Of a stretch of DNA of 64,000 bases, positions 59,701 through 62,700 are shown in pieces. The position numbers were made by a program. The DNA comes from Escherichia coli (GTDB taxonomy: Bacteria > Pseudomonadota > Gammaproteobacteria > Enterobacterales > Enterobacteriaceae). The stretch's first letter is position 1. Each line of letters opens with the position of its first letter. The DNA lies in NCBI RefSeq assembly GCF_048403405.1, contig NZ_CP183129.1; one strand, given 5' to 3'.

Positions 59701-62700
59701 ATTAAACCAGTGTAAAAAGAAACTAGTCCTGCAGAAAAAAGAATATATTTGAACCCTATAAGTAAAAAAAGTATTTCATGTGGGATATATTTTATTCCTA
59801 TAGCCATGGATATGAAAGTAAAAATTAAACCTTGTAAACCATAGGTAATGAAAATTGATTTCCATATGCCAAATACTTTTATTAATATACCACCTAAAAG
59901 TGTTCCAAATAGGCTTGCACAAAAATTGAAGCTTCCTATTAATAGTGCAATATTATTTAATGTAATATTTATATCTATTAATAGAGGTCCGGTAATCATA
60001 TCTGTGACTCTGTTACCTCCTTCTAATAAAACTACTAATAAAATACCAATTCTTACCTCTTTTCGATTAAATGCATATGATAATTTGGGTATATGGTAAG
60101 TTTCAGATGTGGTTAGTCTATCTGATTCTTTAAAGTAGAGTGTTGGAATTGTAAGTAATATGATGGTTAGAGCTGATATAGCAAATGCAGTATTTAAGCT
60201 AAAATAACTGGAAATTAATAAAAAACCACTAGTGCCTAATAATGCTCCTATTTCTCCTCCGCCAACTTGGGCAATATTTCCCCACCCTCTATTACTTGCC
60301 TTAATCTGTTCTACCGCCATGCCATCACATGCAATGTCAATAGTCGATGTTAAGAATGCACATAGGATAAATATTCCAAAAATCCAAAGATTATTCAGTT
60401 TGCTTATATTATCGTTAGGGTTTATTAGAATAAGTAAAAAAACTAAAAGAGCAACCAATGATTGACCAATAAGAATCAAGTTACGTGAACGGCGAAATTT
60501 TTTTCCAAAAGGTAATCTCAGGCGTTCAATAAATGGAGACCATAAAAATTTAAGTGTCCAAGGAAGCATAAAAAGTGAAGTCAATCCAATTAAAGAGAGA
60601 GAAAATCCTTCACTTCTTAGTAAGGTTGGTACAGATTGCATGATAATCATTGATATAAGGGTTTGGGTGATATAAACCCCACCTATAGCCATAATGATCC
60701 TTCTGTTGGCTGATAACTCATAACAGATTGATTTATAGCAGCAATGATCCTTTTGTTTTTTGTCATTGGTTTGCACTCTATTAACCCACCTTAATATTCA
60801 TGTTTTCTGTTACTCAGCACACTTTCATAAGTATATATAATTTTCATGCTCAAAATGTGATCAACCTCAAATAATAATAACAATGCAAATGATATTAATT
60901 CGCATTAACATTTCGGCGTAAAGTGCCATTGCACATTTTGGGGTTTATATGGAAAATAAAGGAACTTTATTTAAATCTATATCTTTTGTAGCGGCTACAA
61001 TGGTAACAGTAAGCTCTGTAGCTGCCACAGAACAGCATGATAATACAATAACTGTTACTGCAACTAAGCGCATTCAAAGTAGTTTTGATGTAATTGGTAA
61101 TGTGAATGTTCAAACTGATGAACAGTTAAAAAAATCTTTAGTTAATCAAACTGATGATTTGAGCGCAGTTTTTCCTGAGTTGTTATCTGCAAACCGAAGT
61201 TCGCGTATTTATAACAATATGACTCTTCGGGGCCAATCTTCGGCCGATTTCTTTTCTCCAAGTTTGGGACTGTTTGTTGATGGTGCTCCCCAGCTTTCTC
61301 AATCGTATGCTCAATCTCTTCAAGGGGTTGAGCAAGTTGAGCTACTTAAAGGCCCACAAGGAGTTATTTATGGGCGTGGCACATTGGGAGGGATTATCAG
61401 TGTTATTACCAAAAAACCCAGTAGTCACGCTGAAGCATGGTTAGGGGGGCAATATTTTGGTCAAGGGGAAAGAATCAATACAGGAGGAAGCACTGGCTAC
61501 ATGGAAAACGGCTGGGCTTTTCAGGGGAATGTTAGTCTCGATAGAAATAATGGTTCTTTGAACAATCCAGCATGGGATAAAAAAAATGTTGATAGCAGAG
61601 ATATAAAAGCTGGATGGTTGTCTGCTAATTATATTTCCCCTGATACATTATTTGAGTCTAATTTAAAAGTAGGTGGAGAAAATTACCATTCTCATGAGGA
61701 ATATTTTGTTCCTTTTTCACCTCTTTCACGTTCAAAAATTGATACTGAATGGTTATATGAAACACCTAATCTTAAACGTAAATTAAAAAATATTTCCTGG
61801 AATACAGGTTATGATTTTAATGATGAATGGAAGTTTAAAACGATACTTTCTTATCAAAATATGGATATAGATAGATTGTTTATGGACGGAACGTTACAAG
61901 ATGATTCTCAGGATATTTTGTATTCAGAAGCAAGAGCTAATTATGAGGGGGGGGATTTAAGTGGAATTATAGGGGTATCATTTCAAAAGATGGGTTATAG
62001 ACATGATAATTTATCTGTAGGGAAAGTCGGAATGGGAGGAAAAAAATCTGATAATGATATTTATAATTACTCTGGATATTTTGATGGTGCATACAGGATA
62101 AATGACAATTGGGAGTTAGGTGCAGGGGCTCGTTTTTCTCACGAAAAAGCAAAAACTCGAATGATTATTTTAGAAAAAGGAAAAGGTGAGTCTAATTATA
62201 ATAATAATGCAGTTTTTAATGCCTTTATTCCACGAGCAAGTATCGCCTGGCTTCCAAATGAGCAGAATCGTATATGGTTTGGAGTTGGCCGCGGTTTTAA
62301 ACCTGGTGGTTTTAACAAAGAAGGGGTTGATAAACTAGCTCTGACTTCTTATAAATCGGAAATTGCCACGGAAATGGAATTAGGTTGGAAATGGCACAGT
62401 GTTAATGATAACCATATGGCCGAAATTACTTTATATCAAATAGATAGTAAAGATGTTCAAGGATATGTAGGTGTTATTGGTTATCAGGCATTATCTAATA
62501 TGGGAGATTCAAGAAGTCGAGGGATAGAATATCTTTGGAAATCAAAGCTTACCCCTAATCATAGTATTTCACTGGGTGGCATGTTCAATCAATCAGAGTT
62601 TACCAGTGGAGAACATAAAAATAAAAGACCTGCTTATACTCCTAGTTATAGTTCATTAATTTCATGGGAGGGCTTATATGGCAAGGAGCAAAAGTGGTCT

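What the first reader, a model, noticed from the sequence alone, without database searches (positions are those of the whole stretch)
60777..60948. Divergent promoter region between the siderophore operon and its receptor with Fur-box-like AT-rich motifs
The 172-bp intergenic region is AT-rich and contains AATGATATTAATT and AATAATAATAACAATG segments that partly resemble the GATAATGATAATCATTATC Fur consensus. No AraC-type activator is encoded nearby, so regulation may be by Fur alone.
Basis: inference. Interest (0 to 1): 0.3.

Follow-up and report, generated by a model that had tools for sequence, protein, structure and literature searches.

The report
Known Fur operator of nrp siderophore locus
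The short gap between a siderophore-synthesis operon and its outer-membrane receptor gene carries a statistically supported binding site for the iron repressor Fur, but this is the already described iron-regulated nrp locus of the Proteus mirabilis element ICEPm1, so the finding is correct and ordinary.

Summary
The window is an E. coli chromosome carrying an ICEPm1-type conjugative element. The finding lies between nrpX, the first gene of the yersiniabactin-related operon nrpXYRSUTABG, and the divergent PMI2596-type TonB-dependent receptor.

The coordinates and both quoted strings are correct. The region (30% GC) is barely more AT-rich than its neighbours.

I built a Fur weight matrix from 17 E. 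coli K-12 Fur-regulated promoters.
- Two overlapping sites 6 bp apart score 14.4 bits (60885-60903) and 15.4 bits (60891-60909). That is near the median of known sites.
- They rank 6th and 3rd of about 64,000 window positions.
- Shuffle P is 0.008 for the best site and 0.0002 for the phased pair.
The second string is weak (6.5 bits or less).

In five distant high-GC orthologous loci, the best Fur site of each roughly 10-kb locus lies upstream of the receptor gene (17.6-23.2 bits).

No AraC-type regulator is annotated anywhere on the element. A review citing Himpsl et al. 2010 already reports iron-limitation induction, Fur consensus sequences and the lack of a linked regulator.

Verdict: real, supported and already known. 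Transcription starts and direct Fur binding remain untested here.

The parts
60777..60948 (.). Divergent intergenic region between nrpX and the PMI2596-type receptor gene (172 bp, 30.2% GC)
   Evidence: ORF list. PGAP annotation of a 100%-identical E. coli copy. GC content.
60885..60909 (.). Core Fur operator: two overlapping 19-mers 6 bp apart, GCAAATGATATTAATTCGC (14.4 bits, 13/19) and GATATTAATTCGCATTAAC (15.4 bits, 14/19)
   Evidence: Consensus and matrix scans. Shuffle and empirical backgrounds. Core conserved in variant locus L002 within otherwise poorly alignable DNA.
60867..60897 (.). Weak upstream extension of the array, in 6-bp phase with the core (19-mers at 60867 = 6.5 bits and 60879 = 9.0 bits).
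   Evidence: Not significant on its own.
60871..60898 (-). Best sigma-70-like candidate promoter for nrpX: TTAATA (60898-60893), 16-nt spacer, TATTAT (60876-60871). Its -35 hexamer lies inside the Fur operator. A prediction only.
   Evidence: The hit count in the region equals the shuffle expectation, so the promoter is not established.
60814..60841 (+). Candidate receptor promoter: TCAGCA, 16-nt spacer, perfect TATAAT (60836-60841). The AGTATATATA block is conserved in L002. Weaker alternative -10 elements (AATAAT) lie at 60870-60878, next to the operator.
   Evidence: Transcription starts are unknown.
60949..62937 (+). TonB-dependent siderophore receptor (PMI2596 type, 662 aa)
   Evidence: Pfam Plug and beta-barrel domains, and TIGR01783. 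100% identical proteins in P. mirabilis, Providencia and E. coli.
59463..60776 (-). nrpX, an RhtX/FptX-family MFS siderophore transporter and first gene of the operon
37213..59431 (-). Rest of the operon: nrpY (methyltransferase), nrpR (2034 aa), nrpS (3071 aa), nrpU (thiazolinyl reductase), nrpT (thioesterase), nrpA and nrpB (ABC exporters), nrpG (PPTase)
   Evidence: Gene names from PMC11026637.

Best explanation
The region is the shared control region of two divergent, iron-repressed transcription units of the ICEPm1-type nrp (yersiniabactin-related) siderophore system.

A cluster of overlapping Fur-binding 19-mers has its core at 60885-60909 and a weak extension back to 60867. The core ends 40 bp upstream of the receptor's ATG and starts 109 bp upstream of the nrpX GTG.

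With iron present, Fe2+-Fur dimers bind the overlapping sites and block RNA polymerase at one or both back-to-back promoters. When iron is scarce, Fur leaves and both the receptor gene and nrpXYRSUTABG are transcribed. No pathway-specific AraC-type activator is encoded on the element.

Shown here:
- the site exists;
- its score is in the range of known E. coli sites;
- its occurrence exceeds chance;
- the core is conserved in the one variant locus, and strong Fur sites lie upstream of the distant orthologous receptor genes;
- no linked AraC gene is present.

Taken from the literature: iron-limitation induction.

Inferred: actual Fur binding, which promoter(s) it occludes, and that Fur is the only regulator.
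For: - Identity of the locus.
- A matrix from 17 E. coli K-12 Fur-regulated promoters recovers the canonical consensus GATAATGATAATCATTATC. Training sites score 7.4-23.4 bits, and 3.7-22.4 bits leave-one-out.
- Window sites score 15.4, 14.4 and 9.0 bits in 6-bp phase. They rank 3rd and 6th in the window and form its only phased pair with both sites at 12 bits or more.
- Shuffle P is 0.008 for the best site and 0.0002 for the pair. The empirical rate in the AT-rich nrp cluster is 0.012-0.018 per 172 bp.
- Only 1 site of 14.4 bits or more occurs in 57 kb of other K-12 sequence.
- The host flank is E. coli, so the E. coli matrix is the relevant one.
- The variant locus L002 keeps AAATGATAATAATTCGTAT as three phased sites of 10.5-11.2 bits, in DNA that otherwise aligns poorly.
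- In Magnetospira, Roseospira, Phaeovibrio, Thiorhodococcus and Imhoffiella (64-68% GC), the single best Fur site of each roughly 10-kb locus lies upstream of the orthologous receptor gene at 17.6-23.2 bits. These loci have nrpX, or nrpY and nrpR, homologues divergent from the receptor.
- No AraC regulator is annotated on the element.
- Literature on iron induction and Fur consensus: PMC11026637, citing Himpsl et al. 2010.
Against: - The score is mid-range, with 5-6 mismatches to the consensus.
- Equal or higher matrix scores occur inside coding sequence of the same AT-rich cluster: 62050 = 18.9 bits (encoding the conserved motif DNDIYN), 39694 = 16.2 and 38119 = 15.1. The matrix alone therefore has limited specificity in this DNA.
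- Transcription starts are unknown and the promoter predictions are ambiguous. With the best plus-strand -10 (TATAAT, 60836-41), the operator would sit at about +37 to +61 rather than over the promoter.
- A natural C-to-T variant in P. mirabilis ATCC 29906 lowers the two sites to 13.4 and 11.9 bits.
- I found no fur-mutant, EMSA or ChIP data for this promoter in the searchable literature. The primary paper could not be read.
Confidence: 0.8

Rival explanations
1. The match is a chance product of AT-rich DNA. The iron responsiveness of nrp and PMI2596 would then be indirect, for example through another regulator or an sRNA.
For: Comparable or better matrix scores occur in coding sequence of the same cluster. 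The promoter scan is at chance level. No direct binding data were found.
Against: Shuffle P is 0.008 for the best site and 0.0002 for the phased pair. The core is conserved in the divergent variant locus. Strong Fur sites lie upstream of the orthologous receptors in five high-GC genomes, where AT-rich matches are very improbable.
Confidence: 0.07
2. Fur represses, but full expression also needs an unlinked activator. This could be a YbtA/PchR-type AraC protein encoded elsewhere in the host, possibly by a co-resident Yersinia high-pathogenicity island, or another siderophore-responsive factor.
For: All well-studied thiazoline siderophore loci (ybt, pch) use Fur plus an AraC activator (own knowledge; YbtA and PSPTO2606 are named in PMC11026637). 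Only the element itself was checked, not the whole host genome.
Against: No AraC gene lies on the element. The region has no convincing repeat pair of the kind YbtA binds; it has only short repeats compatible with chance. The element works in several host genera.
Confidence: 0.1
3. The operator is read by another Fur-family metalloregulator such as Zur, since yersiniabactin-type molecules also bind zinc and copper.
For: Fur-family boxes are all AT-rich palindromes. A Zur-like palindrome does occur elsewhere on the element, at 26803.
Against: The best Zur-consensus match in the region is 13 of 22 positions. That level is reached by more than 100 positions in the window. The Fur matrix, by contrast, ranks the site 3rd in the window.
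Confidence: 0.03

Closest known systems
nrp / PMI2596 control region of Proteus mirabilis HI4320 ICEPm1 (Himpsl et al. 2010, as summarised in PMC11026637)
   Same: Same genes in the same order. The receptor protein is 100% identical to P. mirabilis entries. The intergenic DNA differs by 1-2 SNPs from P. mirabilis ATCC 29906 and Providencia stuartii copies. Already reported: induction by iron limitation, Fur consensus sequences, two transcripts, and no linked YbtA-like regulator.
   Different: Here the element sits in an E. coli chromosome. The exact published Fur-box coordinates could not be compared because the primary paper is not held.
E. coli enterobactin bidirectional Fur-controlled regions (fepD-entS, fepB-entC, fepA-fes)
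   Same: Short divergent intergenic regions (110-374 bp) lie between siderophore transport and synthesis units. They have overlapping Fur 19-mers and no pathway-specific activator. Their best sites score 13.6-21.5 bits with the same matrix. Clusters of overlapping sites are typical of Fur (PMC2189734).
   Different: The genes are unrelated (catecholate versus thiazoline siderophore). For the E. coli regions, promoters and footprints are mapped experimentally; here they are not.
Yersinia high-pathogenicity island promoters (psn/fyuA, irp2, ybtA, ybtP) and Pseudomonas pch promoters
   Same: Homologous biosynthetic logic (HMWP1/HMWP2-like megasynthases, YbtU-like reductase, YbtT-like thioesterase, YbtPQ-like ABC pair, YbtX-like MFS) and Fur repression (own knowledge).
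   Different: Those loci encode an AraC-type activator (YbtA, PchR) with repeat binding sites, plus salicylate synthesis and activation genes. None of these is present here (PMC11026637). The receptor is only about 27% identical to Psn according to the review.

Membership tests
Fur operator (Fur box) of the enterobacterial Fur regulon | Sequence match to the 19-bp consensus or weight matrix at or above the level of experimentally supported sites | tested here: met
   15.4 and 14.4 bits, with 14/19 and 13/19 consensus matches. This is above 8 of 17 K-12 promoters scored leave-one-out.
Fur operator (Fur box) of the enterobacterial Fur regulon | Occurrence beyond chance in its local sequence composition | tested here: met
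   Dinucleotide-shuffle P = 0.008 for the best site and 0.0002 for the phased pair. The empirical rate in the nrp cluster is 0.012-0.018 per 172 bp.
Fur operator (Fur box) of the enterobacterial Fur regulon | Overlapping sites in 6-bp register (site cluster) | tested here: met
   Sites at 60879, 60885 and 60891, plus a weak one at 60867. This is the only pair in the window with both sites at 12 bits or more. Clusters are described in PMC2189734.
Fur operator (Fur box) of the enterobacterial Fur regulon | Position overlapping the -35/-10 elements or the transcription start of the regulated promoter | tested here: inconclusive
   The operator lies 40-64 bp upstream of the receptor ATG. The best minus-strand candidate promoter has its -35 inside the operator. 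Promoter predictions are at chance level and no transcription start data exist.
Fur operator (Fur box) of the enterobacterial Fur regulon | Conservation upstream of orthologous genes | tested here: met
   The core is kept in variant L002. The top-scoring site of each locus lies upstream of the receptor in five distant orthologous loci, at 17.6-23.2 bits.
Fur operator (Fur box) of the enterobacterial Fur regulon | Iron-dependent repression of the adjacent genes | not testable with these tools
   Reported for P. mirabilis by microarray and qPCR in Himpsl et al. 2010, as summarised in PMC11026637. Not verified in the primary paper.
Fur operator (Fur box) of the enterobacterial Fur regulon | Physical binding by Fur (EMSA, footprint, FURTA, ChIP) and derepression in a fur mutant | not testable with these tools
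   No such data were found in the searchable literature.
nrp (yersiniabactin-related) siderophore locus of ICEPm1 | Gene content and order nrpXYRSUTABG with a divergent TonB-dependent receptor, carried on an SPI-7/ICEPm1-type conjugative element | tested here: met
   Domain assignments. 100% identical receptor in P. mirabilis. Conjugative-element genes on both sides. Description in PMC11026637.
YbtA/PchR-type (Fur plus AraC activator) control of thiazoline siderophore loci | Linked AraC-family regulator gene | tested here: not met
   None among the Pfam-scanned neighbours. None in the PGAP annotation of the whole element.
YbtA/PchR-type (Fur plus AraC activator) control of thiazoline siderophore loci | Repeat sequences for activator binding upstream of the -35 | tested here: inconclusive
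   Only short repeats were found, such as a 9-nt inverted pair at 60851-59 / 60932-40. No YbtA-site model was available for a test.

The most novel reading that the evidence does not exclude
A single shared Fur operator may be the only transcriptional control of both divergent units. This yersiniabactin-class system would then run without any siderophore-sensing positive feedback, unlike ybt and pch. For the receptor gene, the operator might act from downstream of the promoter as a roadblock, if the conserved perfect TATAAT at 60836-41 is the real -10. The persistence of a Fur box at the receptor / nrpX-or-nrpY junction from purple bacteria to Enterobacterales would then mark an ancestral Fur-only design that lets the cluster work in any host after transfer.
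Probability: 0.2. Interest if true: 0.3.

Novelty: already known. Interest (0 to 1): 0.1.

Why it matters
The finding confirms that the element-borne nrp siderophore system, a fitness factor of P. mirabilis in urinary tract infection, plugs directly into the host's Fur regulon. It does so without its own activator. That explains how the cluster can be iron-regulated in E. coli, Providencia and Proteus after horizontal transfer. It adds no new principle, because iron regulation, Fur consensus sequences and the absence of a YbtA-like regulator were already reported.

Tried and rejected
- **Primary paper.** Himpsl et al. 2010 is not held under its PMC id, DOI or PubMed id. I relied on the review PMC11026637.
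- **Published site lists.** I looked for Fur site lists to build a matrix in PMC2189734 and PMC1874648. The sites are in figures or supplements that are not held. I built the matrix from K-12 promoter regions instead.
- **86%-identical receptor cluster P0039.** It has no contig on record.
- **Alternative nrpX start at ATG 60692.** It has a good Shine-Dalgarno sequence, and homologues align from about residue 26. I rejected it as the primary call because that codon is ATA in the variant locus, whereas the GTG and its Shine-Dalgarno block are conserved.
- **Zur box.** Only 13 of 22 positions match, which is not distinctive.
- **Riboswitch or sRNA in the region.** No Rfam match at E-value 1 or below.
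- **Activator repeats.** Only short repeats compatible with chance.
- **Promoter assignment.** Consensus scans are at the shuffle expectation. My relaxed scan gives several incompatible candidates. I do not commit to a transcription start.

Full report
**What the region is.** Profile searches identify the minus-strand gene as an RhtX/FptX-family MFS siderophore transporter. Downstream on the same strand lie:
- a methyltransferase;
- two megasynthases (2034 and 3071 aa);
- a thiazolinyl imide reductase;
- a thioesterase;
- two ABC exporter genes;
- a 4'-phosphopantetheinyl transferase.

The plus-strand gene is a TonB-dependent siderophore receptor. The receptor is 100% identical to proteins annotated in Proteus mirabilis, Providencia and E. 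coli. The review PMC11026637 describes exactly this arrangement. It is the nrpXYRSUTABG operon (PMI2597-2605), divergent from receptor PMI2596, on a P. mirabilis pathogenicity island.

The surrounding genes are those of an SPI-7/ICEPm1-type integrating conjugative element. The window's left flank is 100% E. coli chromosome. Thirteen complete E. coli genomes carry the region at 99.8-100% identity. The host of this window is therefore an E. coli with an ICEPm1-like element.

**Check of the observation.** Both quoted strings are present, at 60888-60900 and 60870-60885. PGAP annotates the same gene boundaries in an identical copy.

I examined whether nrpX really starts at the GTG, because homologues align only from about residue 26 and an ATG with a good Shine-Dalgarno sequence sits at 60692. 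In an 86%-identical variant locus (L002), the GTG and the preceding AAGGTGGG block are conserved, whereas the internal ATG is ATA. The 172-bp boundary therefore stands.

The 'AT-rich' description is true but not distinctive. The region is 30.2% GC, the whole nrp cluster is 35.5%, and neighbouring 150-bp coding windows are 29-36%.

**Matrix test.** No published site list was readable. I therefore fetched 17 Fur-regulated intergenic regions of E. coli K-12: fepA-fes, fepD-entS, fepB-entC, fhuA, fecI, cirA, fiu, tonB, exbB, fur, fhuE, fhuF, ryhB, gpmA, sufA, feoA and sodA. From them I derived a symmetric 19-bp matrix by consensus-seeded refinement.
- The matrix reproduces GATAATGATAATCATTATC.
- Training sites score 7.4-23.4 bits, and 3.7-22.4 bits leave-one-out. 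They match the consensus at 11-17 of 19 positions.

In the window, GATATTAATTCGCATTAAC (60891-60909) scores 15.4 bits and GCAAATGATATTAATTCGC (60885-60903) scores 14.4 bits. Weaker sites lie in the same 6-bp register at 60879 (9.0 bits) and 60867 (6.5 bits).
- The two strong sites rank 3rd and 6th of about 64,000 positions.
- They are the only 6-bp-phased pair in the window with both members at 12 bits or more.
- Dinucleotide-preserving shuffles of the region reach 15.4 bits in 0.8% of trials, and reach such a pair in 0.02%.
- The empirical rate in the AT-rich nrp cluster is 0.012-0.018 per 172 bp.
- In 57 kb of K-12 sequence outside the training regions, only one site reaches 14.4 bits.

The second string contributes only weak sites.

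One caveat applies. Similar or higher scores occur in coding DNA of the same cluster. The strongest, 18.9 bits at 62050, encodes the conserved receptor motif DNDIYN, so it is explained by coding constraint.

**Comparative evidence.** The element copies are nearly identical, with only three SNPs across P. mirabilis ATCC 29906, Providencia stuartii and the window. One of them is a C-to-T change inside the box that lowers the scores to 13.4 and 11.9 bits.

A more divergent variant (L002, from a Salmonella read set) has an IS element inserted in the region. It still retains two blocks in otherwise poorly alignable DNA: AGTATATATA, and AAATGATAATAATTCGTAT. The second again forms three 6-bp-phased sites of 10.5-11.2 bits.

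A scan of species-representative genomes found orthologous receptors (42-55% identity) in high-GC purple bacteria. In Magnetospira, Roseospira, Phaeovibrio, Thiorhodococcus and Imhoffiella, the single best Fur-matrix site of each roughly 10-kb locus lies upstream of the receptor gene. The scores are 23.2, 18.9, 19.9, 19.9 and 17.6 bits. Phaeovibrio has an nrpX homologue, and Roseospira has nrpY and nrpR homologues, divergent from the receptor. Fur control of this junction thus appears ancestral to the gene family.

**Mechanism.** The best-supported reading is classical Fur repression of two divergent units from one operator cluster, as in the E. coli enterobactin bidirectional regions.
- The operator ends 40 bp before the receptor ATG.
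- It contains the -35 hexamer of the best minus-strand promoter candidate (TTAATA, 16-nt spacer, TATTAT).
- Promoter scans are at chance level, however. An alternative plus-strand promoter with a perfect TATAAT (60836-41, in the conserved block) would put the operator downstream of the start.

Which promoter is occluded is therefore inferred, not shown. Iron-limitation induction of nrp and PMI2596, two transcripts, and 'consensus sequences for Fur binding' are reported by Himpsl et al. 2010 as summarised in PMC11026637. I could not read the primary paper. I also found no fur-mutant or binding data.

**Rivals.**
- Chance similarity is unlikely given the statistics and the comparative data.
- A Zur-type box is not supported, since only 13 of 22 positions match and that level is common in the window.
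- No Rfam family matches the region.
- An unlinked activator cannot be excluded. However, no AraC-family gene is annotated anywhere on the element, and the region has no convincing repeat pair. The review likewise states that the operon lacks a linked regulator analogous to YbtA.

**Verdict.** It restates what is already published for the P. mirabilis nrp locus. Novelty: already known. Interest: low.

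Noticed in passing
window 26773-26825 (upstream of ORF 26826-28919): The best Zur-consensus match in the window (GATATGTTATAACATAACA, 16 of 22 positions, at 26803) lies next to a 13.4-bit Fur-matrix hit at 26773. 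Both sit just upstream of a TonB-dependent receptor with a His-rich stretch, which is followed by a second receptor-like gene (28921-31299). This may be a zinc- or iron-regulated uptake pair on the same element.
   Followed up: partly
window 62050-62068: The strongest Fur-matrix hit in the window (GATAATGATATTTATAATT, 18.9 bits) is inside the receptor gene. It is in frame and encodes the family-conserved motif DNDIYN. It is kept at 15.4 bits in variant L002. It is probably a coding-constraint false positive, but intragenic Fur clusters are known in E. coli (PMC2189734).
   Followed up: partly
window 39694-39712 and 38119-38137: Fur-matrix hits of 16.2 bits (at the nrpA/nrpB overlap) and 15.1 bits (inside nrpB). 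Whether they mark an internal iron-regulated promoter was not examined.
   Followed up: no
window 60684-60707 and 60734-60757: A 24-nt direct repeat (83% identity) lies in the 5' end of nrpX, with 50-nt spacing and so out of frame. It duplicates the Shine-Dalgarno-plus-start context of the internal ATG at 60692. The first ~25 codons of nrpX are poorly conserved in the variant locus and have compensating indels. The N-terminal extension may be a recent acquisition.
   Followed up: partly
window 60851-60859 and 60932-60940: A perfect 9-nt inverted repeat (CAAAATGTG / CACATTTTG) brackets the Fur operator with 72 nt between the arms. It is compatible with chance in AT-rich DNA and its function is unknown.
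   Followed up: no
L004, L005, L007, L009, L010 (loci): The nearest non-enterobacterial relatives of the receptor, and of nrpX, nrpY and nrpR, are in high-GC purple bacteria (Rhodospirillales, Chromatiaceae). The cluster in the window is only about 35% GC, which is lower than either E. coli or Proteus. The donor lineage of the nrp cluster is therefore unclear.
   Followed up: partly
L002 2165-3460 and 3560-3990: The variant locus has an IS3-family insertion splitting the nrpX-receptor region. It also has a further ~430 bp of unrelated, higher-GC DNA between the Fur box and a receptor gene with a different N-terminus. This looks like a decaying or rearranged copy.
   Followed up: no
window 19772-19932: A STAXI RNA motif (Rfam RF01728, 121 bits) lies just downstream of the topoisomerase III gene, as is usual for this class of conjugative element.
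   Followed up: no
window 63179-63532: An IS200/IS605 transposase remnant lies immediately downstream of the receptor gene and is annotated as a pseudogene in the E. coli copy. IS110 and IS3 remnants flank the other end of the operon at 33417-35644. The nrp module is thus bracketed by IS debris within the element.
   Followed up: no
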